A stretch of 64,000 bases of DNA from an uncultured Gammaproteobacteria bacterium. Lineage in GTDB: Bacteria > Patescibacteriota > Patescibacteriia > Buchananbacterales > UBA6539. The notes under the pieces are model-generated. The model had not been told where the DNA came from. It did no database searches and was given only the letters and a program-made list of their open reading frames with translations. Positions 2,295-49,944 of the stretch are shown here, piece by piece. A program made the position numbers and the translations under genes. The stretch covers positions 20,963 to 84,962 of the forward strand of contig CAZINP010000002.1 of the NCBI GenBank assembly GCA_964540635.1, read 5' to 3'. The stretch's first letter is position 1; every line of letters begins with the position of its first letter.

Positions 2295-2690
2295 ATGAAA
2301 ATTAACATCAAGTGGACAAACATTGAAAATAATCAAGAGTTGGAAAAATTTATTGACGAGAGAATAGGCGAATTAAAAAAATATTTGCCCGAGCGCACTG
2401 AGCCGATTGATGTCAGAGTTGAAATCGGACGCACCACCTTTCATCATCAATCGGGTGATATTTACCATGCGGTTTGTGATTTGCGTTTGCCGGGCAAGGT
2501 TTTAAGGGCTCAGGCTGACAGGGCGGATTTAAATCAAGCCATTACTGAGGTTAAAGAAGAATTGCAAGGCAAAATAAAAAATTATAAAGAAGCGAATGTT
2601 GCTAAAAATCGTCGCATGCAAAGATTGTGGAAGGCAATTAAAAATTCTTCACCGATGGAGTGGGGAAAAGGTAAATTTATTAAAAAATAA
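2295..2690 (+). CDS. hpf: ribosome hibernation promoting factor / RaiA (S30EA family)
   Basis: 'MKINIKWTNIENNQELEKFIDERIGELKKY...' matches the RaiA/HPF fold signature. The start is moved to the ATG at 2295 to avoid overlap with the rnhA stop; the tracked ORF starts at 2250. Confidence 0.7.
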   Translation: MKINIKWTNIENNQELEKFIDERIGELKKYLPERTEPIDVRVEIGRTTFHHQSGDIYHAVCDLRLPGKVLRAQADRADLNQAITEVKEELQGKIKNYKEANVAKNRRMQRLWKAIKNSSPMEWGKGKFIKK

Positions 2691-2699
2691 TCAAAAAAT

Positions 2700-3335
2700 A
2701 TGATTTGGAAAAATTTTCCTTACCCGCTCAGGGGGATGATAATTTTTGCAGCTTTCTTTTTAGTTGTTAATTTCGTGCCTCAGGCTTCATTTATTCTGAT
2801 GTTGCCTTATTTTCTTATTTCGATGCCATTATATTTTTTTCTATGGGCCCTTTCTTCAATAACAAATATACAACCGAACGATTCTTATTTTATTCATGAG
2901 GGCTTACTCTTTTTTTATTTTTTAATAATCGGAGCGGTTGCGGGTTTAATCTATGGGAAATTAAAGAGGAGAAGAATTAAAATTGAAAATGAGAATAGAA
3001 TCACTTGGTTTCGAAAATTTCCTATTTGGTTTAGGGCTTTGATTATTACTTGGATTATTTCAATTATACTTATCCTACCAGTTTTTGCTTTGTGGTCATG
3101 CGTCGGTTTAACTTGTCTGGGGGTCGGTATTTATATGATGCCATCACTTATTCTCTCAATGCCGGTCCTTGGGTTATTCAGCTTGGTAATAAAGGATTTC
3201 TCACTTGAAAGCAACCCACCAATGATTATGTTTTTTGCTTTTATTCAATTTTTATATTTTACGGTTTTCGGACTTATTTTAGGCGTGATTATTCAGAAAT
3301 ATAAAGAGAGAAAATTAAATAATAGCAAACAATAA
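2700..3335 (+). CDS. hypothetical polytopic membrane protein
   Basis: Multiple hydrophobic segments and no recognisable catalytic motif. Confidence 0.5.
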   Translation: MIWKNFPYPLRGMIIFAAFFLVVNFVPQASFILMLPYFLISMPLYFFLWALSSITNIQPNDSYFIHEGLLFFYFLIIGAVAGLIYGKLKRRRIKIENENRITWFRKFPIWFRALIITWIISIILILPVFALWSCVGLTCLGVGIYMMPSLILSMPVLGLFSLVIKDFSLESNPPMIMFFAFIQFLYFTVFGLILGVIIQKYKERKLNNSKQ

Positions 3336-3338
3336 TTT

Positions 3339-3809
3339 ATGTTTGTTAAAATAAATAAAGCCGGCCTATTTTTATTTCTAAGTTTTTTGTTTTTTATATT
3401 TTACCAATTGTCAATGGCACTTGTTTCCTCGATTTCATTTTTAGATTCTTCTGGCTTGTTGGGTAAAATTTTGGTTTGTTTTTCACTTTTGATTTTAGCT
3501 TTTTCACCATTATCATTTATCTTGTTTTTGGTCTTTGCAGTTTTCATTAAAACCCCCAAAAAAGCCAACCTTGGTGATTCGAAACCAACCCCGATACAAC
3601 CTAGGAAAATCAATAAAGCAGGCCTATTTTTTATCTTGACGATCGTTTTTCTCTTGATTAATGGTTATTTTATTTCTCTTGGTTTGGCCCCGTCATCAGC
3701 GCCTAAGTTTTTGGATATTATACCTGCTTATTTCACCCCGATTATCCTTTTTGGCTTGCCAATTTCTTTTTGTTTATTTTTATACTTTTGGGCTTTCGGT
3801 AAAAAATAG
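3339..3809 (+). CDS. hypothetical membrane protein with internal duplication
   Basis: Two copies of an 'INKAGLF(L/F)...' hydrophobic module, at nt ~3346 and ~3605. Confidence 0.45.
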   Translation: MFVKINKAGLFLFLSFLFFIFYQLSMALVSSISFLDSSGLLGKILVCFSLLILAFSPLSFILFLVFAVFIKTPKKANLGDSKPTPIQPRKINKAGLFFILTIVFLLINGYFISLGLAPSSAPKFLDIIPAYFTPIILFGLPISFCLFLYFWAFGKK

Positions 3810-3842
3810 TTAAATTTTAATTAATCAACATAGCGCCATTTA

Positions 3843-4469
3843 TTGGCGCTTTTGTTGTATAAATTATTATTGTATATTATGTCTTTTAATTCAATAAAAA
3901 ATCAGCGTCGTTCAATTCGTTTGCCATATTTTGATTATTCCCAGGACGGTCAATATTTTATTACCATTTGTTCATTTGAAAAGAAAGATATTTTTTCACG
4001 GGTTGAAAATAATATATCAATTTTGAATAATTTTGGAAAGATTGTGGAGGAGGAGTTGTTAAATACCCAAAAAATTCGTAAAAACGTCATGATTGGTAAA
4101 TATGTTATCATGCCAAATCATATTCACGTAATTATCACAATTACCCGTGGTAGGGGCGCATTGCAATACGATTTTGCAACAAAAAATGGAAATCGTGGTA
4201 GGGGCGTATTGCAATACGCCCCTACGTTTGATTTTAATTACAAAAAAATATTTAAATCACCGTCGCAATCAATCGGTTCAATCGTGCGTGGTTTCAAATC
4301 AATTACCACCAAACGTATCAATATTATACGTCAAACCCCGGGCGTGCCGGTTTGGCAACGCAATTTTTACGAACACATTATTCGCGATGAAAATGATTAT
4401 CATCGTATTGTTGATTATATAAAATTAAACCCGGAAAAATGGCAATTTGACCGTAATTTCCGGAAATAA
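3843..4469 (+). CDS. REP-associated tyrosine transposase (RAYT, IS200/IS605 TnpA-like HuH)
   Basis: HuH motif 'MPNHIHVII' and C-terminal 'VWQRNFYEHIIRDENDYHRIVDYIKLNP' match the RAYT/IS200 family. Palindromic REPs lie inside and downstream of the ORF. The true start may be M13 (nt 3879). Confidence 0.75.
   Translation: MALLLYKLLLYIMSFNSIKNQRRSIRLPYFDYSQDGQYFITICSFEKKDIFSRVENNISILNNFGKIVEEELLNTQKIRKNVMIGKYVIMPNHIHVIITITRGRGALQYDFATKNGNRGRGVLQYAPTFDFNYKKIFKSPSQSIGSIVRGFKSITTKRINIIRQTPGVPVWQRNFYEHIIRDENDYHRIVDYIKLNPEKWQFDRNFRK
4146..4226. repeat. two tandem REP-like palindromic units inside the RAYT ORF (second is a perfect 28-bp palindrome GTAGGGGCGTATTGCAATACGCCCCTAC at 4198-4225)
   Basis: Direct reading: a self-complementary 28-mer beginning with GTAG; the first copy is degenerate on its right arm. 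Both are in-frame, encoding 'RGRGALQYDFATKNGNRGRGVLQYAPTF'. Confidence 0.8.
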
Positions 4470-12108: not shown

Positions 12109-15100
12109 ATGTTTAGAATTACGTTTTGTTGCTTTTTGTTCATGTGTTCGGCTTATTCAGAAAAGCCAATGCTCAAACTCCCGTTTTCAGCTGGTCAAAT
12201 TTGGTCAATCACTGTTGGTTACGGTGGTAGCGATTATCATCAAAATGATGATTTTTATGCGCTTGATTTCAATCTTCCTGGAGATTCTGATCTGGGACAG
12301 CCAATCTTGGCAGCGGCATCGGGAGAAATTTTCTACGCTGGTTGGATGAATGGCTACGGTTGGACCGTGATCATTGATCATGGCTATGGTTACAAAACCA
12401 GATATGCGCATTTGAATTTAGCGCCTACCGTATCCGGTAGAATTTTACAGGGTCAAGAGATTGGAAAATGTGGTTCGTCGGGTGGGACAAGTACCGGTCC
12501 ACATCTTCATTTTGTGATGTATTTTAATGGTGGTCCTGAAATCCCAGAGCCAATGTCGGGTTATGCAAATTTTCAGGTTGGTGGTCGATATGTTTCTGAT
12601 AACTTTTTTTATAGTCAGGAGTTAGTTATCGGCTACCATCCAGATGGCTCTATCTCTCAGCCAATCCTTGACTACTACAGTCGTCCGGAACAAAACCTTG
12701 GTCAGCCGTTTGATAACGGCGGTGGACTTTACGTTCATGACTGGTCAAGCCAAGACGGCACGACCAAAATTACGCTTCAGGATTTTTGCTTAGGCAGTCC
12801 TGGGGTTGGCACACATTGCGCCATTGTTGAGTCCGTTGATGGAAACGCATACTCGCTGAAAGGTGCTTTTCGCTGGTACTACATGCAAAAAACCTACGAC
12901 GGCATGCCTTTTGATGCCGTTAAACTGCTTGGACCGCCAATTAACGATGGCGGAGCCACAGTTTACTATCCGATTTTGCCTGACGGAACCTTTGATTGTG
13001 TTGCCGGAAAGACCAGATGCTATGTCACCCAGAGCTTTGCCAATGGGTATGACTTTGTCTGGGACGGTAGCAAGGTTTGGTTGGTTCAAAATGTTTGCGG
13101 CCTGAATAAGGCGTTGAAATCGGTGGATTTTGACTGTAATGGTCAGCCTTACGAATTTCAGATTGCCGGCAGTTTGCCGGCAGAACCGGGATGCATTACG
13201 CTTCACGGTGCGGCCAATTGCTCTACCGGCGTTTATTTGGAGTGGTCAGATACTTTGTATCAAAGCCAGTTCTATCGTTTGTGGTCAAACGGCCAGCTGA
13301 GGGCAAATGTCGGGGCCAGGGGATACAGTGATTATCCGCTTTGGCCTTCAACAACCTATCGCTATCAGGTGGAAGCAATAACTTTTTCGGGGATGTCGCT
13401 GGGTTTCAGCAATGAAATCGTGGTGACCACACCGGAAAGTGAGCAGGAACCCGGTGGCGATTTGGGCGAGCCCTTTCCAGCGCGAATTGAGGCAACTTTG
13501 TCCGAATGCCTTTGGGTGTGGGGACAAACCTCTTCGCAAAACGGGATTTATTTGACGGCTCAAGTTTTTGACCAATACGGTCAACTGATGCCAAACGAAG
13601 AGGTGGTTTTTACCTCATCAAAGCCTTTGGTTTTTTGCGTCAATTTTGATTCCGGTTGGTGCAGTGCTGATGATGTTGGTCAAGCTGAAGTCTGGGCTCA
13701 GCACCGCGATTGGAGCGGCATTCGCTCGCAGAGAATCGCGGTCACTGTGGTCAACCAACTTCCGCCCGAGCCGATTGAACCGGATGTTTATGAATCATCA
13801 GGCTTGAAGCTTGAAAACTTCAACCTTTTGAGCCAAGGGCCGTTTGTAGAGTATTGTGGGTTGTTTTATTCGGTTCTGATTAGCAACCCGACCGATCAGC
13901 CCATTACTTTTTATGGGCCTCAGCTTTACCATTTTGACTTGAACGGCAAAACGGTTGGGGATTCGCCCTACAGCATTATTCCCACCACATTGCAGCCGGG
14001 TCAGTCGCAAGGTTTTGCTGACAGCGGCGGTCAAATTGGAGCGGCCGGAGAGTATTACTTGATGGCTATGGTCAACTTTGATGGACAATATGCTTCGCCG
14101 CGATATGTGATTGACGATTGTGCGGCTGGCATCAGCAGTAAGATTTACGTCAAATCTGTTTCTCAGGACGATTTAAAGGCAGACCTACAGGCCTTTGATC
14201 TCTACCTGGATAACTCTGCTCCATCAACCAATGATTTGATTGGCCTTAACGCTCGAGTTTTTAACTTCGGGCGAAAAAAAGTTGACGCGTCCTTTTCGGT
14301 CAGTATTGAGATTCGTGGAATCGGCAGTCAGTTCTGTGAAGTCGCCGGACTTGAGCCAAACAGCTATGAGTCCTGCAATATGTTCTTTGGCCCTTTGCCG
14401 GCAGGAGCATATACGGCCGATCTGATTGTTGATTCGCAAAACTCCATTCTGGAGGAAAACGAAGGCAATAATGTGGCACATTTGCCTTTTACGGTTTCGT
14501 CAATGAATCTGCCGCCGGTTATTATTACCGATTTGGCAGATAAAACAGTGGCGCAAGGCTCCAAGGTGATTTTTGAGGTTTTAGCCACGATTGCCGATCC
14601 GCCGAATGATCAAACTGATTTGCCAATAAGCTATCAGTGGCAGCATAACGGGCAGGAGGTGATTGCCAACAATTCTTCCCAGTTAATTCTGGAAAATGTC
14701 GGTTTTGACCAGGCAGGAAGCTATGCCTGCGTGGTTACAACCGCCAATGGTTTTGCTGCATCTAGCCGCACGGCCATTCTCACGGTTTTGCCAAAATTGA
14801 AAATCACCTCTCAGCCACAAGTTCTCACCTTGTTTCAGGGTCAAGCTCTTGAGAATTGTTTGCAGGCGGTTGGTGCTGGAACCTTGTCGTACCAGTGGTA
14901 CAAAGATGGCAAGATCATCTCCGGACAGAATCAACCTTGCTTGAAAATCGCATCGGTTCTTACTTCCGACTCCGGGTTCTATCATTGTCGGGTGACTGAT
15001 GTGGCTGCTGGTTTAACGCAGCGACTAAACACAAAAGTTGTTCAGTTGTCGGTGCGTCAAGTTGGTTCTGGTGCGCCGGCCGTTTATCTGGAGTATGTGG

Positions 15101-16302
15101 ACGGTGAGAGTGTCATCACGGGACGTCTTCAGGCAAATCAATGGGCATTGGGCGGGCTTCTTTTGAATCCCTACTCTTTGCCGGCCAAAAAGACGTATGC
15201 TGATGTCCAAAATCTGGGCTTACGATTTACGCAGAGTAAGGAGCCCAAGGTTTGTCTTGATGACGGAGAGCAAATTTTGCTTGATGAAAACGGCAATTCG
15301 CTTAAAGACAATCTTTACGACGGAATTGGTTTTGACGCCACGCGCAGTTTTGAGGTCAACCTTTTCGTTGGCAGGACATTGTACTGCAGGCTAAGGCCCT
15401 ATCTGATCATTTCCGGCAAGGTTTATTACCTTAATCTGGAGGTGGTCAAGATTTATTTGAACGGGAACGAACTTGCTGTTTCAAACGGCCAAGCCTTACT
15501 CTATTTGGCCACCGTCAACCCGCAGTTGCAGATAACACTGCAACCAATTGATCGAACCGTTAAAACTGGCGCCAATTTGTATTTCAAGGTCGCTGCCGTC
15601 GGCGATCCGGTGATTACCTACGCCTGGTTTAAGGACGGTCAGGCTGTGCCCAGCGGAAATAAGGCAATTTTGCGTCTATTGGGCGTGTGTTTGGATGCAG
15701 CAGGCGAGTACTCGTGTTTGGTCAAGACTTCGGCCGGAAAAGAAGTTTGGTCATTGCCGGCCAGGTTGACTGTTTACCAGAAGTTGCAGATCCTAAGTCA
15801 GCCCGTTTCCGTTGCGCTTAGGGAAGGTGATTCTGGCTTTTTTGAAGTTGAGGCAATTGGGCAAGGAGAGCTTTTCTATCAATGGAGAAAAGACGGGAAA
15901 AAAATTCTTGGCGCAAATCAGTCTTGTCTTGAGTTTGAGTCTGTGGCAAAATCTCAGATTGGCAGCTATACCTGTTTAGTTTCAGACAGTTGTCCAGGAA
16001 CGGCTCAGCGGTTGCTGAGTCAAGCGGCTGATTTGTCAATTTTGCCTGAAATGCAAGTTGTGGTTTGCGTCGAAAAGATTGATTCGGAGTTTATTGAGTG
16101 CCAGCCATCGGCTCGCGCCAACCCGGGTCAGACCGTTCATTTTTCTTGCCAGGTGCAAAACGGCATCGCGCCATTTTCCTATCAATGGTTTTTCAATGGC
16201 GATGTATTGCCGGGTGAGATTGGATCAACTTTGGTCAAAACCGAGGTTTCAAACGACGAAGAGGGCGCTTATAATTGCCAAGTGACTGATTCGTCTGGTT
16301 GA
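12109..16302 (+). CDS. giant secreted multidomain protein: N-terminal M23 (LytM-type) metallopeptidase, two CARDB-like domains, about five Ig-like (I-set-like) domains
   Basis: M23 motifs 'HQNDDFYALDF' (HxxxD) and 'GPHLHFV' (HxH). CARDB-like 'ENEGNNVAH'. Repeated Ig hallmarks 'YQW(Y/F/R)KDG' plus 'YxC' ('SYACVV', 'FYHCRV', 'EYSCLV', 'SYTCLV', 'AYNCQV'). Strong SD 'AAGGAG' 8 nt upstream. GC is visibly higher than in the neighbouring genes. Confidence 0.75.
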   Translation: MFRITFCCFLFMCSAYSEKPMLKLPFSAGQIWSITVGYGGSDYHQNDDFYALDFNLPGDSDLGQPILAAASGEIFYAGWMNGYGWTVIIDHGYGYKTRYAHLNLAPTVSGRILQGQEIGKCGSSGGTSTGPHLHFVMYFNGGPEIPEPMSGYANFQVGGRYVSDNFFYSQELVIGYHPDGSISQPILDYYSRPEQNLGQPFDNGGGLYVHDWSSQDGTTKITLQDFCLGSPGVGTHCAIVESVDGNAYSLKGAFRWYYMQKTYDGMPFDAVKLLGPPINDGGATVYYPILPDGTFDCVAGKTRCYVTQSFANGYDFVWDGSKVWLVQNVCGLNKALKSVDFDCNGQPYEFQIAGSLPAEPGCITLHGAANCSTGVYLEWSDTLYQSQFYRLWSNGQLRANVGARGYSDYPLWPSTTYRYQVEAITFSGMSLGFSNEIVVTTPESEQEPGGDLGEPFPARIEATLSECLWVWGQTSSQNGIYLTAQVFDQYGQLMPNEEVVFTSSKPLVFCVNFDSGWCSADDVGQAEVWAQHRDWSGIRSQRIAVTVVNQLPPEPIEPDVYESSGLKLENFNLLSQGPFVEYCGLFYSVLISNPTDQPITFYGPQLYHFDLNGKTVGDSPYSIIPTTLQPGQSQGFADSGGQIGAAGEYYLMAMVNFDGQYASPRYVIDDCAAGISSKIYVKSVSQDDLKADLQAFDLYLDNSAPSTNDLIGLNARVFNFGRKKVDASFSVSIEIRGIGSQFCEVAGLEPNSYESCNMFFGPLPAGAYTADLIVDSQNSILEENEGNNVAHLPFTVSSMNLPPVIITDLADKTVAQGSKVIFEVLATIADPPNDQTDLPISYQWQHNGQEVIANNSSQLILENVGFDQAGSYACVVTTANGFAASSRTAILTVLPKLKITSQPQVLTLFQGQALENCLQAVGAGTLSYQWYKDGKIISGQNQPCLKIASVLTSDSGFYHCRVTDVAAGLTQRLNTKVVQLSVRQVGSGAPAVYLEYVDGESVITGRLQANQWALGGLLLNPYSLPAKKTYADVQNLGLRFTQSKEPKVCLDDGEQILLDENGNSLKDNLYDGIGFDATRSFEVNLFVGRTLYCRLRPYLIISGKVYYLNLEVVKIYLNGNELAVSNGQALLYLATVNPQLQITLQPIDRTVKTGANLYFKVAAVGDPVITYAWFKDGQAVPSGNKAILRLLGVCLDAAGEYSCLVKTSAGKEVWSLPARLTVYQKLQILSQPVSVALREGDSGFFEVEAIGQGELFYQWRKDGKKILGANQSCLEFESVAKSQIGSYTCLVSDSCPGTAQRLLSQAADLSILPEMQVVVCVEKIDSEFIECQPSARANPGQTVHFSCQVQNGIAPFSYQWFFNGDVLPGEIGSTLVKTEVSNDEEGAYNCQVTDSSG

Positions 16303-43739: not shown

Positions 43740-44657
43740 ATGTTTTTAATTTCTCTTTATCGCATTTTTGTTTTTGCCAGCCAAAGTTTTTGGCGAAACT
43801 TTTGGCTCTCATTAGTCACCATTACAATAATTGTTTTAACCTTTGCGTCAATCAATTTTATTATCGTTTTGAATATTATCACTCAAGCCTCAATGGAAAT
43901 AGTGAAAGATAAAATTGATGTAAGTATATATTTTAAGACCGATGTAACGGAACCACAAGTAATGGAGGTAAAAAGCTATTTAAGTACTCTGGCGCAAGTA
44001 AAAGATATTACTTACATTTCCCAAGCTGAAGCTTTGGAAAGTTTTAAAGAGAAACATGAAAACGATAAAACAATTATTGAATCAATAGACGAATTAGATG
44101 TAAATCCGATCGGTGCCACTCTTAATGTGCGCGCCAAGGATATTGAAGATTATCCTTTAATTGTTGAGGTTTTATCAAATTCAAAATATGATGCCTTAAT
44201 CGCTGACAAGAACTTTGATGATCACAAATTTTTTATAAACAAAATAAAAGTAATTGCTGATAATATCAAGCAGTTCGGTCTAATGGCTTCGCTGGTTTTA
44301 AGTCTCATCGCACTCCTAATTGTTTTTAACACGATTAGGGTTGCAATTTATACTCATCGACAAGAAATAGCGATTATGAAGTTGGTTGGCGCGACAAATT
44401 GGTTTATTCGCGGGCCATTCTTACTTGAAGCCGTATTCTATGGAATTATCGCCTGCGTTGTTTCAATTATTATCGCTTATCCGTTTTTGAACATGATACA
44501 GCCATATTTGAACACTTTCTTTTTAACAGAAAATTTTAATATCTCAAGCTATTTTAATGATAATTTCTGGCAAATATTCGGATTTGAACTCATAATTGTT
44601 GTAATCTTAAATATCCTAAGCAGTTATGTGGCCATTAGGCGATACCTTAAGGTCTGA
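43740..44657 (+). CDS. ftsX: cell-division permease FtsX
   Basis: N-terminal TM, periplasmic domain and three C-terminal TMs; 'MKLVGATNWFIRGPF'. Confidence 0.8.
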   Translation: MFLISLYRIFVFASQSFWRNFWLSLVTITIIVLTFASINFIIVLNIITQASMEIVKDKIDVSIYFKTDVTEPQVMEVKSYLSTLAQVKDITYISQAEALESFKEKHENDKTIIESIDELDVNPIGATLNVRAKDIEDYPLIVEVLSNSKYDALIADKNFDDHKFFINKIKVIADNIKQFGLMASLVLSLIALLIVFNTIRVAIYTHRQEIAIMKLVGATNWFIRGPFLLEAVFYGIIACVVSIIIAYPFLNMIQPYLNTFFLTENFNISSYFNDNFWQIFGFELIIVVILNILSSYVAIRRYLKV

Positions 44658-44714
44658 TTCTGTTTGACATTAAGCCAAAATTGTTTTATTTTTAATTATC
44701 ATCGTTTGTAATTC

Positions 44715-44785
44715 TCGGGGATCGTCTAAGGGCAGGACAGCGGCCTTTGAAGCCGTTAATCGGGGTTCGAATCCCTGTCCCCGAG
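44715..44785 (+). tRNA. tRNA-Gln (anticodon TTG)
   Basis: TCGGGGA/TCCCCGA acceptor; D-arm GTCT/GGAC; anticodon stem-loop GCGGC-CTTTGAA-GCCGT; T-loop TTCGAAT. Confidence 0.8.
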
Positions 44786-44998
44786 AATTGCAAATGATGG
44801 AAAAAGTGGGCTTTGCGCCTATTTTTTTATTGTAATTTATTATAGTTATTCCTTATTCAATTTTTGACTAAACGACCAAAATTCAATATAATTATTTTAT
44901 TGATAATTATTTATTTAACACAAAATGTTATCGGAAAACAGACGGTTTTATGCCATACCAGATGAATCGAGGATACCGCCAGAAAAAAAGATACAGTA

Positions 44999-46306
44999 AT
45001 GTCAGAAGTTGGCAGGCTCGAAACCACTTTATCTTCTTTATTTCCAATGCCTTGTAAATACGGGGTTTGCAAGATCGGAGAATACTCGGGTTTAACGGTA
45101 CTTGATCTTCTAATTGATACCGATGAAACTAGAATTGGCCTAGCGCCAGAAGGGGAGGCTAGAAAAATGCTTGAAAACCAAGCTGATTTAGCCGTAAAAC
45201 ATGAGCAGCCAATAGTTTTAGTTGGTATTTACGGAACACCTAGGCACATTGATCATCCGGACTTAAATTCACCCCAGCTGGCGGATATGTCAGCGGTAAT
45301 GATGGTTCAGGCCGCTCTTGATCGTGTGCATTCGGCACATATTTCCGGCTCTCAATATCGCATGATTGACGAAAATCTTACCGCCCTTTGGCTTGATAGG
45401 GCTCAGCATCCTGAAGGAGATAAGGGTGTGACAAAATATAAATCCGTATATGAACAGTACTATAAAAATAGACTAAATCTACTTAAGACTTTACAGGCCG
45501 AAGGTTTAATTAATACTGGGGCCACAAAAATTGAGCTGCTTTCTGAATCTGAATTATATGAATCAGTTTACAAGAAGGCGGGTGTAACCGATAAAGTTCC
45601 AGAAGATGATTTCTTTGAAAAATGTGAGAGATATCGTCAAGAGATGCTTTCCTATTTAACCGCCAGTGGTGATATAATTAGAAAATATTACGGCCAAGAG
45701 GACCAATATTGGAATTCATCAATTGACGACGAGCAACTTTGGGATAAATGCAAAAAAGAAATTATTAATAGTCCGGAATATTCAGGGATTGCAAGTACGG
45801 GGTGGCAAGGTTTAATCCCGCCGGAAATGAGGAAATATTACCTAGAAAAATTTAGAAAAATTTTAGGCAACGCAAACTTGGCAGCAAATGATGAAATGTT
45901 ATTATTCCATGTGGCCACGTATTTATCTTCAACTTTAGCTAAGCATAATGCAAAAGTTCTTACAGAAGGGTTAAATGCCGGCGCACCTGTTATTAGAGTT
46001 CCACTCGCAAAACCCGTTGATGGTAGGCCACCAACTCATCAATCTTTAATACCCCAAAGAACGCTGCCGAAATTAAAAGGTAAAACAAGTAAAAAAGTAA
46101 GCAATTCAAATAGGGCGGCCTGGTTAAGTGTTGCGGTTCAAGGCGATTCAAAACTCAGATTAATTGACACAAAAAACTATTTAGATACACCGCCGGAATT
46201 AATAGTGCCAATTCAGATATATACTGTTGGCCCAGATAATTCACCGAAATCTTATTTGGTGGATTCTGCCATTATGCTTTCCGGCGCTAAAAAAAAGATA
46301 AATTAA
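44999..46306 (+). CDS. hypothetical protein (orphan; no recognisable domain)
   Basis: 435-aa ORF with no signal peptide or TM, ~200 nt downstream of tRNA-Gln after an AT-rich spacer; GC looks higher than in neighbours. Confidence 0.45.
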   Translation: MSEVGRLETTLSSLFPMPCKYGVCKIGEYSGLTVLDLLIDTDETRIGLAPEGEARKMLENQADLAVKHEQPIVLVGIYGTPRHIDHPDLNSPQLADMSAVMMVQAALDRVHSAHISGSQYRMIDENLTALWLDRAQHPEGDKGVTKYKSVYEQYYKNRLNLLKTLQAEGLINTGATKIELLSESELYESVYKKAGVTDKVPEDDFFEKCERYRQEMLSYLTASGDIIRKYYGQEDQYWNSSIDDEQLWDKCKKEIINSPEYSGIASTGWQGLIPPEMRKYYLEKFRKILGNANLAANDEMLLFHVATYLSSTLAKHNAKVLTEGLNAGAPVIRVPLAKPVDGRPPTHQSLIPQRTLPKLKGKTSKKVSNSNRAAWLSVAVQGDSKLRLIDTKNYLDTPPELIVPIQIYTVGPDNSPKSYLVDSAIMLSGAKKKIN

Positions 46307-46316
46307 TAATATATTT

Positions 46317-47039
46317 ATGGAAATCATCACATTCTTTTGGCATTACTATTTGTATGTTCCGCTTTTTAATTTTCTTGTTTGGCTTTATTTAAATTTTTCC
46401 AATTACAATTTTGGCGTTACCATCATAATTTTAACCGTCCTTCTAAGAATTATCCTTCTGCCTTTTTCAATTCTTACGGAAAAGGGTAAATTTACCGCCG
46501 AGGAATTAAGAAAAGAAGTAATGCAAATAAATCGTGATTTTGCCGGCGATCCGGTCAGAAAAAAAATTGCCATACGCCAGGCAATGAAAAAGAAAAAAAT
46601 AAGACCATGGGCAAAAACCATTGCTTTGGCCGCCCAAGGCTTGGTTCTTTTTCTTTTATATCAAGTTTTTATCGGTGGAATTAACACCCAAGAAAAACTT
46701 CATCAAATTTACCCCTTTATCCAAGCGCCGGACTTTATTAATACTTCATTTCTTTGGATGAACTTGGCAATAAGGGATTTTTTCATATCTTTTCTGGTTG
46801 GTATTTATCTTTTTGCCGGAATTGTTTTTGAGAGAAGAATTCATAACTACAAACCAAGCAGAAAAGAACAAATTTTTTCATTATTTTTCCCGATCTTTTG
46901 TTTTGTTCTTTTATATTATTTGCCTTCAGCCAAGTCACTTTTTGTTTTGACATCAATGATTTTTTCTTCTATAATTACCTTGATTTCATTTTTAATCAAA
47001 TTTAGTATTAAAAAAGCGGCATTAGCGTCGCAAGACTAA
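46317..47039 (+). CDS. yidC: membrane protein insertase YidC/Oxa1 (short form)
   Basis: 'GVTIIILTVLLRIILLPFSI' then amphipathic 'ELRKEVMQINRDFAGDPVRKKIAIRQAMKKKKIRPW' (YidC C1 helix hairpin); five TMs. Confidence 0.65.
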   Translation: MEIITFFWHYYLYVPLFNFLVWLYLNFSNYNFGVTIIILTVLLRIILLPFSILTEKGKFTAEELRKEVMQINRDFAGDPVRKKIAIRQAMKKKKIRPWAKTIALAAQGLVLFLLYQVFIGGINTQEKLHQIYPFIQAPDFINTSFLWMNLAIRDFFISFLVGIYLFAGIVFERRIHNYKPSRKEQIFSLFFPIFCFVLLYYLPSAKSLFVLTSMIFSSIITLISFLIKFSIKKAALASQD

Positions 47040-47043
47040 AAAT

Positions 47044-47604
47044 ATGGCAGAAGACGGTCTAGATAAATTAATGTATTCATTCGTCGTCGAAGACGTTTTG
47101 AAGGGTTTTTTTATTCACGTCCCACCCGGATATGTTGCCTGTGTTTATGATTTGGGTCGAGGCGTATTAAAAAAGATTTACAAACCAGGGCTGCATTTGA
47201 AAATTCCTTTTTGGCAAAGAGCCACGTTATTTAACACCCAAACACTGGAATATGATATCGGGAAAAGATACAACCAAGATAGACCGGAATTGCTTGGCGA
47301 TTCTCCTATCACGGCCACAAGTGCTGATGGCAAAAAAATCAGTATTGAGGGCACTATTTTAATGAGACTTGATCAAGAACAAATTCCTGAAATTTGGCAA
47401 AGTATCGGTCAGAATTTTGTTGAAAAAATTATTCGTCCTACCATCCAAAGCCGAATGAGAATGATTGCCGCAAAATATACTTTAAATGAAATGGGGACCA
47501 GCAAACGCGCGGAAGTAGAAATTGATGCCAGACAAGAACTTGAAAGGATCTTGTACCCAAGAGGTATTTTTGTTGAAAACGTTTTGCTGAAAGAAATATA
47601 CTAA
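47044..47604 (+). CDS. SPFH/band-7 domain protein
   Basis: 'KIYKPGLHLKIPFWQRATLFNTQTLEYDI...' and 'IRPTIQSRMRMIAAKYTLNEM', typical of the stomatin/prohibitin fold. Confidence 0.55.
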   Translation: MAEDGLDKLMYSFVVEDVLKGFFIHVPPGYVACVYDLGRGVLKKIYKPGLHLKIPFWQRATLFNTQTLEYDIGKRYNQDRPELLGDSPITATSADGKKISIEGTILMRLDQEQIPEIWQSIGQNFVEKIIRPTIQSRMRMIAAKYTLNEMGTSKRAEVEIDARQELERILYPRGIFVENVLLKEIY

Positions 47605-48252: not shown

Positions 48253-49944
48253 ATGTTTGCAAAAAAAAATAAGATTCAAATTGCGTTAATCACAATAATA
48301 ATAATGGCGGTTTTGGCCATTATGATTGATTTTCCGCAACAATTACAAAAGTCGGGATTTCCCATTCCGTCGTTTTTGAATTTGCCTTATAGATTAGGGC
48401 TTGATTTACAGGGTGGAACACAGCTTATTTATACAGCTGATGTTTCAAATATTGCCACCGGAGACCAAGAAAGTGCGGTCGAAGGTGTTAGAGATGTTAT
48501 TGAACGCCGAGTTAATGCTTTTGGTGTAGCCGAACCATTGGTTCAAACTTCTAAAGTTGAAGATTCTTATCGAATTATAGTTGAATTGGCTGGCGTTTCC
48601 GATATCAATCAGGCAATAAAAATGATTGGCGAAACACCTCTTTTGGAATTCAAAGAATTAAACCCGGTTCAAGCAGTCAGCATTACAGAGGATCAAAAAA
48701 AGGAAATGGATGCCTATAATTCAGAAGCTCTTAAGAAAGCTCAAAGTACTCTAGCTGAAGCCTTAAAGCTTGGTTCTAATTTTAGCGATCTTGCCAAAAA
48801 ATACAGCGAGGATTCCGGCTCAAAAGACAACGGTGGTGATTTAGGCTTTGTAAAAAGAGGGGTTATGGTTTCAGAGTTTGAAAAGGCATGTTTTGATGAT
48901 CTTAATGATGGTGAAATCGATAAAAATTTAGTTAAAACTGAATACGGCTATCACATTATTAAACGCGTGGCTCATAAGGGAGAAGGGGATAATTTGGAAG
49001 TACAGTGCAGTCATATATTATTTTTGACAAAGTCGGAGGTTGATTTTGGCACGGTTCCTGATCAGTGGCTTTTAACCGGATTAAGCGGGAAACAATTAAC
49101 CAAGGCTCAGGTTACCTTTGATTCCAACACTCAGATGCCAATGATTAGTTTAGAGTTTAACAGTGAAGGCAAGGATTTATTTTCCGAAATAACTACAAGA
49201 AACATTGGAAAGCCGGTTGCGATTTTCTTAGACGGCGAACCGATAAGCACTCCAACCGTCCAAGAGGCGATTAAGGATGGTAAAGCGGTTATCAATGGTA
49301 AATTCACAATTCCAGAAGCAAAATTGTTGGCCCAAAGGCTTAATGCCGGTGCCTTACCCGTTCCAATCAACATGATTTCACAAAAAACAGTCGGGGCGAG
49401 CCTTGGAAGTGAATCCGTTAATCAAAGCGTAAAAGCTGGTATTTTAAGCTTGATTTTAATCTGCTTGTTCATGATTTTATATTATCGCTTACCCGGCTTA
49501 GTTTCTTCAATTGCTTTACTATTCTATGCCGTCGTGGTTGTTGCCGTTTTTAAGATTTTAAACGTTACCCTTACCTTATCCGGAATTGCCGGCTTTGTCC
49601 TGTCGTTAGGTATGGCTGTTGATGCCAATATTCTTATTTTTGAGCGCTTAAAAGAAGAAATTAGATGGGGTAAACCATTTTCCATGGCAATTGAAGAAGG
49701 ATTTAAGCGTGCCTGGTCTTCAATTTTAGACGGCCACGTTGCTACACTTATATCTTGTGGTATCTTAATTTGGTTTTCCACCAGCATGATTAAAGGCTTT
49801 GCCATAACTTTAGCAATCGGCACAATCATGAGTTTATTTTCGGCCATTGTTGTTACCCGCATCATCATCAAAGCATTAACCAAAATCAATAGCCTTAATA
49901 AAAACTGGCTTTACGGCGTTAGCAAAAAATCAATCAACAAATAA
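48253..49944 (+). CDS. secD: protein translocase subunit SecD with an inserted parvulin (PpiC) domain in the periplasmic loop
   Basis: N-terminal TM; P1 domain interrupted by 'LAKKYSEDSGSKDNGGDLGFVKRGVMVSEFEKACFDDLNDGEI...YGYHIIKR' (PpiC signature); C-terminal six-TM SecD core 'LGMAVDANILIFERLKEE'. Confidence 0.75.
   Translation: MFAKKNKIQIALITIIIMAVLAIMIDFPQQLQKSGFPIPSFLNLPYRLGLDLQGGTQLIYTADVSNIATGDQESAVEGVRDVIERRVNAFGVAEPLVQTSKVEDSYRIIVELAGVSDINQAIKMIGETPLLEFKELNPVQAVSITEDQKKEMDAYNSEALKKAQSTLAEALKLGSNFSDLAKKYSEDSGSKDNGGDLGFVKRGVMVSEFEKACFDDLNDGEIDKNLVKTEYGYHIIKRVAHKGEGDNLEVQCSHILFLTKSEVDFGTVPDQWLLTGLSGKQLTKAQVTFDSNTQMPMISLEFNSEGKDLFSEITTRNIGKPVAIFLDGEPISTPTVQEAIKDGKAVINGKFTIPEAKLLAQRLNAGALPVPINMISQKTVGASLGSESVNQSVKAGILSLILICLFMILYYRLPGLVSSIALLFYAVVVVAVFKILNVTLTLSGIAGFVLSLGMAVDANILIFERLKEEIRWGKPFSMAIEEGFKRAWSSILDGHVATLISCGILIWFSTSMIKGFAITLAIGTIMSLFSAIVVTRIIIKALTKINSLNKNWLYGVSKKSINK

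What the first reader, a model, noticed from the sequence alone, without database searches (positions are those of the whole stretch)
44786..46306. Orphan 435-aa gene immediately downstream of tRNA-Gln with atypical composition
The ORF 44999-46306 has no signal peptide, TM segment or motif I can place in a known family. It lies ~200 nt after tRNA-Gln, a classical integration hotspot, across an AT-rich spacer. Its nucleotide composition looks more GC-rich than the flanking ftsX and yidC, judged by eye. No integrase or direct repeat of the tRNA 3' end is visible, so if it was acquired the mobility genes are gone. It is a candidate novel effector or toxin-like cargo gene.
Basis: inference. Interest (0 to 1): 0.5.

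Follow-up and report, generated by a model that had tools for sequence, protein, structure and literature searches.

The report
Acquired isonitrile-synthase-like gene beside tRNA-Gln
The "orphan" gene is a very divergent, unannotated relative of isonitrile synthases (PvcA/IsnA) found only in a few ultra-small (CPR/Patescibacteria) bacteria; it was inserted as a single-gene cassette between tRNA-Gln and yidC, and a one-base deletion has split off its start.

Summary
The ORF (44999-46306, 435 aa) and tRNA-Gln (44714-44786) are real, but the gene model is incomplete. Homologues carry 25 more N-terminal residues, which are encoded here from 44925 in the -1 frame. An A7 run (44983-44989) breaks the frame.

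In 37 sister loci the ftsEX-tRNA-Gln-yidC block is conserved and the gene is absent from all of them; in the closest relatives yidC starts 33 nt after the tRNA. The ~1.49-kb insert carries its own terminator-like hairpin and near-consensus promoter.

The "atypical composition" idea does not hold (GC z=+0.9, GC3 z=-0.5). There is no integrase, no att repeat, and no toxin or defence signal. The chemistry (isonitrile or N-formyl product) is inferred, not shown.

The parts
44714..44786 (+). tRNA-Gln (anticodon UUG). It is ancestral to the locus and present at this position in the sister genomes.
   Evidence: ARAGORN; Rfam RF00005, 59.6 bits; sister loci.
44700..44800 (+). Extended pre-tRNA-Gln helix. 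The leader 44700-44713 pairs with the trailer 44787-44800, adding 14 bp beyond the acceptor stem. The cassette begins immediately 3' of this helix.
   Evidence: Inverted repeat I3. RNAalifold on 15 sister loci keeps the helix, with compensatory double changes in 12 of the 14 extra pairs.
44801..46290 (+). Lineage-specific insertion of ~1.49 kb (boundaries +/- about 5 nt). It is a single-gene cassette, absent from all 37 sister loci.
   Evidence: Synteny map; junction alignments against L007, L009 and L008.
44800..44828 (+). Terminator-like hairpin followed by a T7 run at the left end of the insert.
   Evidence: Consensus scan. This is a pattern match only.
44864..44892 (+). Sigma-70-like promoter TTGACT-17-TATAAT (11 of 12 matches), 33 nt upstream of the ATG at 44925.
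   Evidence: Consensus scan. This is a pattern match only; the total number of promoter-like sites in the region is not above the shuffled expectation.
44925..44999 (+). N-terminal coding segment. It encodes MLSENRRFYAIPDESRIPPEKK, then out-of-frame IQ and a stop. The TAA at 44997-44999 overlaps the ATG at 44999 (TAATG).
   Evidence: Translation; match to the family N-terminus consensus MxxEGxxxFYAVPDESRIPxxxKDxVM.
44983..44990 (+). A7 run plus G, which forms the heptamer A_AAA_AAG in the zero frame. This is the site of the 1-nt deletion relative to an in-frame A8. A -1 slip here gives ...PEKKDTVMSEV..., which matches the family.
   Evidence: Sequence; translations; L001 has in-frame GGA AAA AAA GAT at the same place; a second strain assembly has the same A7.
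44999..46306 (+). Main ORF of 435 aa, the body of a 460-aa PvcA/IsnA-like enzyme.
45191..45569 (+). Residues ~65-190, the Rossmann-like core that aligns by sequence profile to PvcA and IsnA. It contains P71-I72, R82, D96, G117, E125 and Y154.
   Evidence: hmmsearch alignments to 3e59 and 9dh4; hhalign against genuine PF05141 sequences, 95.3% probability.
45800..45841 (+). Family-specific signature GWQGLIPPEMRKYY (residues 268-281). It holds the densest run of conserved columns in the family (G268 and W269 invariant; G271, I273, R278 and Y281 nearly so), and I see no counterpart in the IsnA consensus.
   Evidence: Alignments A1, A2 and A5. Absence from the IsnA consensus is judged by eye against A6.
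45986..46276 (+). C-terminal beta-rich domain, residues ~330-426. It includes W375, which probably corresponds to the TPWHG motif of IsnA.
   Evidence: DSSP on the model; invariant W375. The motif comparison with A6 is by eye, so the correspondence is inferred.
46317..47039 (+). yidC, the right flank of the insertion. In sister genomes it starts 20-85 nt after tRNA-Gln.
   Evidence: Pfam 60KD_IMP; synteny.
43740..44657 (+). ftsX, the left flank. It was used as the anchor to retrieve the sister loci.
   Evidence: Pfam FtsX and FtsX_ECD.

Best explanation
The ORF is the body of a 460-aa gene (44925-46306). It encodes a soluble enzyme from a rare, unannotated branch of the PvcA/IsnA/Dit1 (isonitrile synthase) superfamily whose close members were found only in CPR/Patescibacteria.

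Shown:
- It has the PvcA two-domain fold.
- It is linked to PvcA/IsnA by profile searches.
- It is absent from every sister genome at this otherwise conserved locus.
- It sits in a ~1.49-kb single-gene insert that begins immediately after the pre-tRNA-Gln helix and ends about 25 nt before yidC.
- It is split by loss of one A from a poly-A tract.

Inferred:
- Like PvcA/IsnA (amino acid plus ribulose-5-phosphate gives an alpha-isocyano acid) or Dit1 (N-formyl-tyrosine), it probably condenses the amino group of an amino-acid-like substrate with a carbon from a keto-sugar phosphate, giving an isonitrile or N-formyl small molecule.
- It does this without the usual IsnB/PvcB dioxygenase step.
- The product may be exported, because EamA and MFS transporters and GNAT acetyltransferases recur next to homologues.
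- The gene is transcribed from its own promoter-like site. The 435-aa body is made either by termination-reinitiation at the overlapping TAATG or, as full-length protein, by occasional -1 slippage on A_AAA_AAG.

The confidence of 0.6 is a blend. It is about 0.9 for superfamily homology and for the insertion, and about 0.3 for isonitrile or N-formyl chemistry specifically.
For: Fold:
- AF2 model pLDDT 93.7, pTM 0.91.
- In Foldseek the top 8 hits are all PIsnA or PvcA, E=5.7e-8 to 3.2e-6, probability 1.0.

Sequence chain:
- CPR family against the ~370-aa relatives: hhalign 100%, E=2.4e-42, full length.
- Those relatives against PDB PvcA E=3.3e-7 and PIsnA E=1.1e-6.
- The combined profile against PvcA: E=1.2e-5.
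- Against genuine PF05141 sequences: hhalign 95.3%, E=2.1e-8.
- Relative P0052 passes the Pfam DIT1_PvcA gathering score, 29.2 against 26.4 bits.
- Shared positions in the alignments: P-I, a basic residue (K in IsnA, R82 here), D96, the G of the PG motif, an acidic residue at 125, and Y154.

Acquisition:
- 37 sister loci all lack the gene.
- The junctions are defined.
- L011 and L033 carry different cargo at the same site.
- Homologues lie in unrelated neighbourhoods in MAGs labelled as at least five CPR lineages, at 59-66% identity.

Gene is probably live:
- There are no other lesions in 1.3 kb.
- A second strain allele differs at 16 nt, 14 of them third-position, giving only I389V and N393D.

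Reference chemistry: PvcA uses tyrosine plus ribulose-5-phosphate, and the Dit1 product is most likely formyl-tyrosine (PMC7345447).
Against: - The protein itself gives no PF05141 hit even at E<=10, and the CPR-only profile finds nothing in the PDB.
- Identity to PvcA is only 10-13%.
- Hallmark IsnA motifs are altered. PAFPxKSPN becomes GIYGTPRH. The E of PDMAE is lost in the CPR clade. CSDGHVF becomes DE[ND]LTALWL. The substrate or the chemistry may therefore differ.
- No Fe/2OG dioxygenase partner appears in any of the 12 neighbourhoods, and no partner gene is consistent across them.
- The frameshift removes a well-ordered beta-strand and the start of helix 1, so the product here may be impaired.
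- The 16 strain differences cluster in 160 nt, which looks like a recombination patch. Their synonymous bias may reflect selection in a donor allele and not selection after the frameshift.
- The promoter and terminator are consensus matches only.
Confidence: 0.6

Rival explanations
1. The gene is a recently inactivated pseudogene. The 1-nt deletion in the poly-A tract killed it, and the 435-aa ORF is an undecayed remnant with no function in this organism.
For: - The frameshift is present in two strain assemblies.
- It removes 25 conserved residues that form a confident beta-strand plus the start of a helix in the full-length model.
- No Shine-Dalgarno-like sequence is visible before the ATG at 44999 (read from the sequence).
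- There is no stimulatory RNA structure, z=-0.87.
- All other homologues are in frame.
Against: - There is no second lesion in 1,308 nt.
- The upstream 22 codons are still intact and match the consensus.
- The zero-frame stop overlaps the ATG (TAATG), a classical coupling arrangement.
- The deletion automatically creates A_AAA_AAG, a well-known efficient -1 slip site in bacteria (my own knowledge of dnaX and IS911), so some full-length protein is expected.
- The allelic differences are 14 of 16 synonymous-type.
Confidence: 0.2
2. The protein has the PvcA fold but a different reaction. It would be a superfamily member that uses another amine (for example a nucleotide, a cell-wall precursor or an aminoacyl-tRNA) or another carbonyl donor, and would make something other than an isonitrile or formamide.
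For: - The hallmark motifs have diverged, and the family has its own invariant signature GWxGxIPPEMRxYY plus a conserved Cys pair, C19 and C24.
- Nucleotide and sugar enzymes recur nearby: Nuc_deoxyrib_tr in L047 and L049, NUDIX in L051, Exo_endo_phos in L002 and L053.
- The second-tier fold matches are TyrRS and aa-tRNA-using cyclodipeptide synthases.
- A tRNA-Gln(ttg) lies within 3 kb of the gene in 3 of 7 independent CPR loci.
Against: - In the window the tRNA-Gln is ancestral and the gene was added next to it.
- The tRNA genes in L049 and L051 are native to their own lineages and no flanking DNA is shared.
- The neighbour associations are each seen in only 2 or 3 loci.
Confidence: 0.25
3. 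One reading: a toxin-like or effector cargo gene of a degraded tRNA-targeting genomic island.
For: - There is a presence/absence polymorphism immediately next to a tRNA.
- The same junction holds other cargo in L011 and L033.
- One homologue lies beside a Prok-E2/JAB/ThiF/BubE cluster and another beside a bAvd-RT pair.
Against: - There is no integrase.
- There is no att repeat at up to 3 mismatches.
- The 7-nt junction motif AAAWGAT occurs 61 times on this strand, so it is not significant.
- Codon usage is native-like.
- There are no PADLOC or PHROGs matches.
- There is no secretion signal or TM segment and no adjacent immunity-like gene.
- The fold is that of a biosynthetic enzyme.
Confidence: 0.05
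4. The gene is ancestral at this locus and was deleted in the sister lineages.
For: An 18-nt imperfect direct repeat (AAAAAAAGATACAGTAAT at 44983-45000 and AAAAAAAGATAAATTAAT at 46290-46307, 16 of 18 matches) brackets the 435-aa ORF and could mediate deletion.
Against: - This would need independent, precise loss in every one of more than 20 lineages spanning ftsX identity of 47-89%, leaving a clean 20-85-nt tRNA-yidC spacer.
- Homologues in other CPR lineages are in unrelated contexts.
- The repeat is low-complexity and A-rich.
Confidence: 0.04

Closest known systems
PvcA (PA2254, Pseudomonas aeruginosa; PDB 3E59) and PIsnA (PDB 9DH4, 9DHM, 9DHN): L-tyrosine/L-tryptophan isonitrile synthases, Pfam PF05141 DIT1_PvcA
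   Same: - Profile-level homology covers the N-terminal Rossmann-like half.
- Shared positions are P-I before strand 1, a basic residue (K or R82), D96, the G of the PG motif, an acidic residue at the end of strand 2, and Y154.
- The C-terminal beta domain, with a conserved Trp, is probably equivalent (by eye).
   Different: - Identity is 10-13% and there is no Pfam hit.
- The protein is about 130 residues longer, with an expanded helical region, an N-terminal strand and a Cys-x4-Cys segment.
- The motifs PAFPxKSPN, PDMAE and CSDGHVF are altered.
- It has its own invariant GWxGxIPPEMRxYY signature.
- It is never adjacent to an IsnB/PvcB Fe/2OG dioxygenase.
- It is found in CPR bacteria and not in Proteobacteria, Actinobacteria, Cyanobacteria or fungi.
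Dit1 (Saccharomyces cerevisiae spore-wall maturation protein), a PF05141 member that most likely makes N-formyl-tyrosine and not an isonitrile (PMC7345447)
   Same: It belongs to the same superfamily. It shows that the fold supports a product other than an isonitrile and can work without an IsnB-type partner.
   Different: Dit1 is eukaryotic, is paired with the P450 Dit2, and matches PF05141 directly. The window protein does not.
Class I aminoacyl-tRNA synthetase catalytic domains (TyrRS, TrpRS) and cyclodipeptide synthases
   Different: Their score is half that of PvcA. No HIGH or KMSKS motifs can be seen in the family consensus (by eye). There is no evidence here for tRNA or ATP use.
tRNA-adjacent genomic islets and hotspots, that is, integrase-less variable segments next to tRNA genes
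   Same: The variable cargo sits precisely at the 3' side of a tRNA gene. Different cargo occupies the same junction in related genomes.
   Different: There is no integrase, no att duplication of the tRNA 3' end, only one gene is inserted, and its codon usage is native-like.
Poly-A tract frameshifts rescued by slippage (the dnaX and IS911 A_AAA_AAG -1 frameshift; transcriptional slippage in endosymbionts). This comparison rests on my own knowledge.
   Same: The heptamer is exactly A_AAA_AAG in the correct register, and the -1 product restores the conserved protein sequence.
   Different: The heptamer is an automatic by-product of an A8-to-A7 deletion. No stimulatory structure was found. It is not conserved in homologues. 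An A7 run is short for efficient transcriptional slippage.

Membership tests
Pfam PF05141 DIT1_PvcA (isonitrile synthase family) | A match to the family HMM above the gathering score (26.4 bits) | tested here: not met
   There is no hit for the window protein even at E<=10, and none for P0022 or P0023. Only distant relatives reach it: P0052 scores 29.2 bits and P0027 scores 26.2 bits.
PvcA/IsnA superfamily (fold level) | The PvcA two-domain alpha/beta fold as the clear best structural match | tested here: met
   [not shown]
PvcA/IsnA superfamily (sequence level) | Statistically significant profile-level homology | tested here: met
   Profile A2 against 3e59 gives E=1.2e-5. Profile A5 against 3e59 gives E=3.3e-7. 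A1 against A5 by hhalign gives 100%, E=2.4e-42. A2 against genuine PF05141 sequences (A6) gives 95.3%, E=2.1e-8. The CPR-only profile A1 finds nothing on its own.
Isonitrile synthase (IsnA/PvcA) as an enzyme | Conservation of the family's invariant motifs (PAFPxKSPN, PDMAE, Y-x-PGA, CSDGHVF, HYQ) | tested here: inconclusive
   Retained: P-I, a basic residue (K to R82), D96, the G of the PG motif, an acidic residue at 125, and Y154. Changed: FP..SPN becomes YGTP.H, the E of DMAE becomes A or S in the CPR clade, and CSDG becomes DE[ND]. The catalytic roles of these residues could not be found in the available literature.
Isonitrile synthase (IsnA/PvcA) as an enzyme | Conversion of Tyr or Trp plus ribulose-5-phosphate to an alpha-isocyano acid | not testable with these tools
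   This needs a biochemical assay. The reference chemistry is taken from PMC7345447.
Bacterial vinyl-isonitrile pathways (isnAB, pvcAB type) | An adjacent Fe(II)/2-oxoglutarate dioxygenase (IsnB, PvcB) | tested here: not met
   There is no TauD or 2OG-dioxygenase family in any of the 12 neighbourhoods of family members.
tRNA-targeting integrative genomic island | A tyrosine or serine integrase adjacent to the tRNA | tested here: not met
   The insert contains a single gene. The flanks are ftsX and yidC.
tRNA-targeting integrative genomic island | A direct repeat of the tRNA 3' end (attL/attR) | tested here: not met
   The 23-nt 3' half of the tRNA occurs once in the 64 kb at up to 3 mismatches. 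No such repeat appears in 44600-47100.
tRNA-targeting integrative genomic island | Presence/absence polymorphism at the tRNA among related genomes | tested here: met
   The gene is absent from all 37 sister loci. The junctions are mapped.
tRNA-targeting integrative genomic island | Atypical base composition or codon usage | tested here: not met
   GC z=+0.9 and GC3 z=-0.5. The codon-usage log-likelihood is z=-1.1.
Programmed -1 ribosomal frameshift (dnaX and IS type) | A slippery heptamer X_XXY_YYZ in register, with the -1 frame continuing the protein | tested here: met
   The sequence reads GA A_AAA_AAG AT. The -1 reading gives PEKKDTVMSEV, which matches the family consensus.
Programmed -1 ribosomal frameshift (dnaX and IS type) | A stimulatory downstream RNA structure | tested here: not met
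   The MFE z-score for 44960-45080 is -0.87, and 36 of 200 shuffles fold at least as well.
Programmed -1 ribosomal frameshift (dnaX and IS type) | Conservation of the frameshift among homologues | tested here: not met
   All the homologues that include the N-terminus are in frame. L001 has an in-frame A7, while L002 and L004 have interrupted A runs. Only the near-identical strain L006 shares the frameshift.
Anti-phage defence, toxin or phage gene | A match to PADLOC or PHROGs models | tested here: not met
   There are no hits at E<=0.1 for the window protein or for P0003.

The most novel reading that the evidence does not exclude
Some CPR/Patescibacteria, organisms thought to have almost no secondary metabolism, carry a previously unrecognised, laterally exchanged stand-alone branch of the isonitrile-synthase superfamily. 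It would make an exported isonitrile or N-formyl amino-acid derivative, for example a copper-binding or enzyme-inhibiting metabolite used in the episymbiotic lifestyle. The gene would move as a promoter-bearing single-gene cassette into integrase-less hotspots such as the 3' side of the pre-tRNA-Gln helix.
Probability: 0.2. Interest if true: 0.65.

Novelty: new variant of a known kind. Interest (0 to 1): 0.42.

Why it matters
- Isonitrile natural products are metal binders and enzyme inhibitors made by a single known condensation-type enzyme family (IsnA/PvcA/Dit1). This finding extends that superfamily to a branch so divergent that Pfam and NCBIfam miss it.
- It places that branch in ultra-small CPR bacteria, where biosynthetic enzymes are scarce. 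The family's own invariant motif and altered hallmark residues make it a useful test of which residues the chemistry really needs.
- The locus is an unusually clean example of a single-gene, integrase-less insertion with mapped junctions next to a tRNA.
- It is also an example of a gene split by a poly-A deletion that may still be expressed.
- None of this is transformative without biochemistry.

Tried and rejected
- Direct family assignment failed. Pfam and NCBIfam gave no hits at E<=10. phmmer against PDB sequences gave only noise. The CPR-only profile against the PDB gave nothing.
- The afdb50 fold library was unavailable.
- The search for related loci with the broad alignment A2 failed because it had no conserved stretch.
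- The profile search of the 5.8-billion-protein set added no new members because of the word prefilter.
- The search seeded with the PIsnA fragment returned mostly partial proteins. They were usable, but their C-terminal halves are sparse.
- Literature searches for the PIsnA structure paper or for catalytic residues found nothing usable, so active-site conservation could not be judged.
- No known RNA family lies in the leader, and there is no frameshift-stimulating fold.
- The leader and promoter DNA has no similarity to the regions upstream of homologues, so there is no evidence of a shared mobile cassette beyond the coding sequence.
- A possible 7-8-nt junction duplication (AAATGAT / AAAAGAT) was rejected as insignificant, because the motif occurs 61 times on this strand.
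- The synonymous bias of the strain differences was considered as proof of selection after the frameshift. It was downgraded because the changes cluster in one 160-nt patch.
Full report
**1. Observation**

The ORF 44999-46306 (+, 435 aa) and tRNA-Gln(UUG) at 44714-44786 exist as described. The spacer is very AT-rich, with GC 0.217 over 44787-44924. The protein has no hydrophobic segment: the maximum Kyte-Doolittle 19-residue window is 0.99. It matches no Pfam or NCBIfam model even at E<=10. The neighbours are housekeeping envelope and secretion genes: a PpiC-type chaperone, ftsE and ftsX upstream, and yidC, an SPFH/band-7 protein, PEBP and secD downstream.

**2. The gene model is truncated by a frameshift**

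- All full-length homologues are 453-463 aa. They begin MxxEGxxxFYAVPDESRIPxxxKDxVM, and the window ORF's first Met aligns to that last M.
- In the window these residues are encoded from the ATG at 44925 in the -1 frame. The reading is MLSENRRFYAIPDESRIPPEKK, followed by IQ and a stop. The main frame continues DTVMSEV.
- The break is an A7 run (44983-44989): CCA GAA AAA AAG ATA CAG TAA. One more A would restore PEKKDTVM.
- The Moranbacteria homologue has in-frame GGA AAA AAA GAT at this position.
- The lesion is not a random assembly error. An independent assembly from another run (L006, SRR8925758) has the identical A7. L006 is 96.5% identical to the window over 11.3 kb.
- Two features could still allow expression. 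The zero-frame stop overlaps the ATG of the 435-aa ORF (TAATG). The deletion also creates the heptamer A_AAA_AAG in the correct register for a -1 slip.
- The heptamer is an automatic consequence of an A8-to-A7 change. There is no stimulatory RNA fold (z=-0.87), and no other homologue is frameshifted. I therefore do not call it programmed.
- A model of the full-length homologue P0003 (pLDDT 93.4) shows what is lost. Residues 8-12 (FYAVP) form a beta-strand and helix 1 starts at residue 19, with pLDDT about 96. The product here may be impaired.
- The second strain's allele differs at 16 nt, 14 of them third-position, giving only I389V and N393D. These changes cluster in 160 nt, which looks like a recombination patch, so they are weak evidence for selection after the frameshift.

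**3. Not an orphan**

A search of 5.8 billion protein clusters found 21 clusters at 54-66% identity. Three carry source labels: Magasanikbacteria, Moraniibacteriota and Paceibacterota MAGs. An exhaustive HMMER search of 1.84 billion representatives found 38 clusters, including a more distant group of mostly 340-440-aa proteins at about 20-30% identity. In 185,579 species-representative genomes, two family-specific peptide patterns recovered only four loci. These are labelled Magasanikiibacteriota, Saccharibacteria, Paceibacterota and Nomurabacteria. The family is rare and patchy.

**4. What it is**

- Many of the distant relatives give weak but consistent hits to PF05141 (DIT1_PvcA). One of them (P0052) is above the gathering score.
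- A profile of the whole family hits PvcA (3E59, E=1.2e-5) and the isonitrile synthase PIsnA (9DH4 and 9DHM).
- The distant group alone gives E=3.3e-7 against PvcA. That group aligns to the CPR family over its full length (hhalign 100%, E=2.4e-42).
- Against genuine PF05141 sequences, hhalign gives 95.3% probability, E=2.1e-8.
- The eight significant Foldseek hits are all PIsnA or PvcA chains.
- The protein is therefore a divergent member of the isonitrile-synthase superfamily.
- Retained positions in the alignments: P71-I72, a basic residue (R82 where IsnA has K), D96, G117, the acidic E125 and Y154.
- Altered positions: the PAFPxKSPN and CSDGHVF motifs, and the Glu of PDMAE, which is lost in the CPR clade.
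- The family adds an invariant GWxGxIPPEMRxYY signature, a Cys-x4-Cys segment and about 130 extra residues.
- I could not find residue-level mechanistic literature, so conservation of the catalytic site remains unresolved.

**5. Acquired cassette**

- Using ftsX as an anchor, 37 sister loci were retrieved. The block tRNA-Thr, tRNA-Gly, ftsE, ftsX, tRNA-Gln, yidC, band7, secD is conserved, and none of the loci contains the gene.
- In the closest relatives (L007 and L009, ftsX 88-89% identical), yidC starts 33 nt after the tRNA.
- Alignments place the left junction at about 44801 and the right junction at about 46291, roughly 25 nt before yidC.
- The ~1.49-kb insert holds a terminator-like hairpin (44800-44828), a near-consensus promoter (TTGACT-17-TATAAT, 44864-44892) and the gene. 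The hairpin and promoter are pattern matches only.
- The same junction carries unrelated cargo in L011 (a 291-aa protein with a hydrophobic N-terminus) and a multi-gene insert in L033, so it is a recurrent hotspot.
- There is no integrase and no att-type repeat.
- DNA similarity to other family loci is confined to the coding region.

**6. Composition**

GC is 0.394 against 0.363±0.035 (z=+0.9, rank 9 of 53), and GC3 has z=-0.5. The synonymous-codon fit is z=-1.1, and the GC excess lies at codon positions 1 and 2. A donor with similar composition, such as another CPR bacterium, is consistent with this.

**7. Context of homologues and mechanism**

- The twelve neighbourhoods share no operon partner. 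None has an IsnB/PvcB-type dioxygenase.
- Weak recurrences are GNAT acetyltransferases (3 loci), EamA or MFS transporters (2 loci), nucleoside deoxyribosyltransferase-like genes (2 loci), Exo_endo_phos (2 loci) and cupins (3 loci).
- By analogy with PvcA (tyrosine plus ribulose-5-phosphate) and Dit1 (formyl-tyrosine) (PMC7345447), I propose a stand-alone amine/keto-sugar-phosphate condensation that gives an isonitrile or N-formyl small molecule, possibly exported. This step is inference.
- There are no PADLOC or PHROGs matches, which argues against a defence, toxin or phage role.

**8. Verdict**

The "orphan", "atypical composition" and "toxin/effector" claims are not supported. The gene is a new, divergent variant of a known enzyme kind. 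Interest is moderate.

Noticed in passing
window 44700-44713 paired with 44787-44800 (around tRNA-Gln 44714-44786): The tRNA-Gln lies inside a 14-bp extension of its acceptor stem, formed by the 5' leader and the 3' trailer. Across 15 sister loci the helix is kept, with compensatory double changes in 12 of the 14 extra pairs (covariation term -7.15). This suggests a conserved pre-tRNA processing helix in this CPR lineage. No CCA is encoded.
   Followed up: partly
window 12109-16302 (+): This 1397-aa ORF is the real compositional outlier of the window: GC 0.476 against a mean of 0.363, and the worst synonymous-codon fit of 53 genes. It combines an N-terminal M23 peptidase, a CARDB domain and many Ig-like repeats, so it is probably a surface protein with a lytic domain.
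   Followed up: partly
L049 929-1002 and L051 131-202 (tRNA-Gln), relative to the family genes at L049 ~2624-3994 and L051 3077-4465: Two homologues in other CPR lineages also lie within 1.6-2.9 kb of a tRNA-Gln(ttg). That makes 3 of 7 independent CPR loci near the same tRNA species, which by my rough estimate is unlikely by chance (about 1e-5). The tRNAs are native to each lineage and no flanking DNA is shared. I have no explanation for this.
   Followed up: partly
L011 7468-8524; L033 5440-8760: The tRNA-Gln/yidC junction carries other cargo in sister genomes. L011 has a 291-aa protein with a hydrophobic N-terminus. L033 has three ORFs that I did not run against any family library. From their sequences they look like a small GIY-YIG-type nuclease overlapping the tRNA, a metallophosphatase-like protein and a large polytopic membrane protein, in place of yidC and band7.
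   Followed up: no
window 48253-49944 (secD) against L006: The two strains are no more than about 1% divergent across ftsX, yidC, band7, PEBP and the region downstream of secD. They are 19.5% divergent across secD and 4.1% across ftsE, and a 160-nt patch inside the PvcA-like gene is about 10% divergent. This is a mosaic pattern that indicates frequent homologous recombination between strains.
   Followed up: no
L002 1574-3684 and L004 124-4043: One homologue lies about 2.3 kb downstream of a Prok-E2/JAB-ThiF/BubE ubiquitin-like cluster with an HTH/M78 pair. Another lies about 2 kb downstream of a diversity-generating-retroelement-like set (bAvd, reverse transcriptase and an 868-aa protein). 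The family therefore tends to sit in variable, accessory regions.
   Followed up: no
L052 11402-15111: The rpoB and rpoC region next to the distant homologue P0054 is called as many small fragments. This may indicate an alternative genetic code (for example UGA read as a sense codon) or a poor assembly in that contig.
   Followed up: no
window, whole: Runs of seven or more A are three times more frequent on the + strand (91) than runs of seven or more T (32). Nearly all genes are on the + strand, so coding sequences here are rich in poly-A tracts and prone to the kind of homopolymer frameshift seen at 44983-44989.
   Followed up: no
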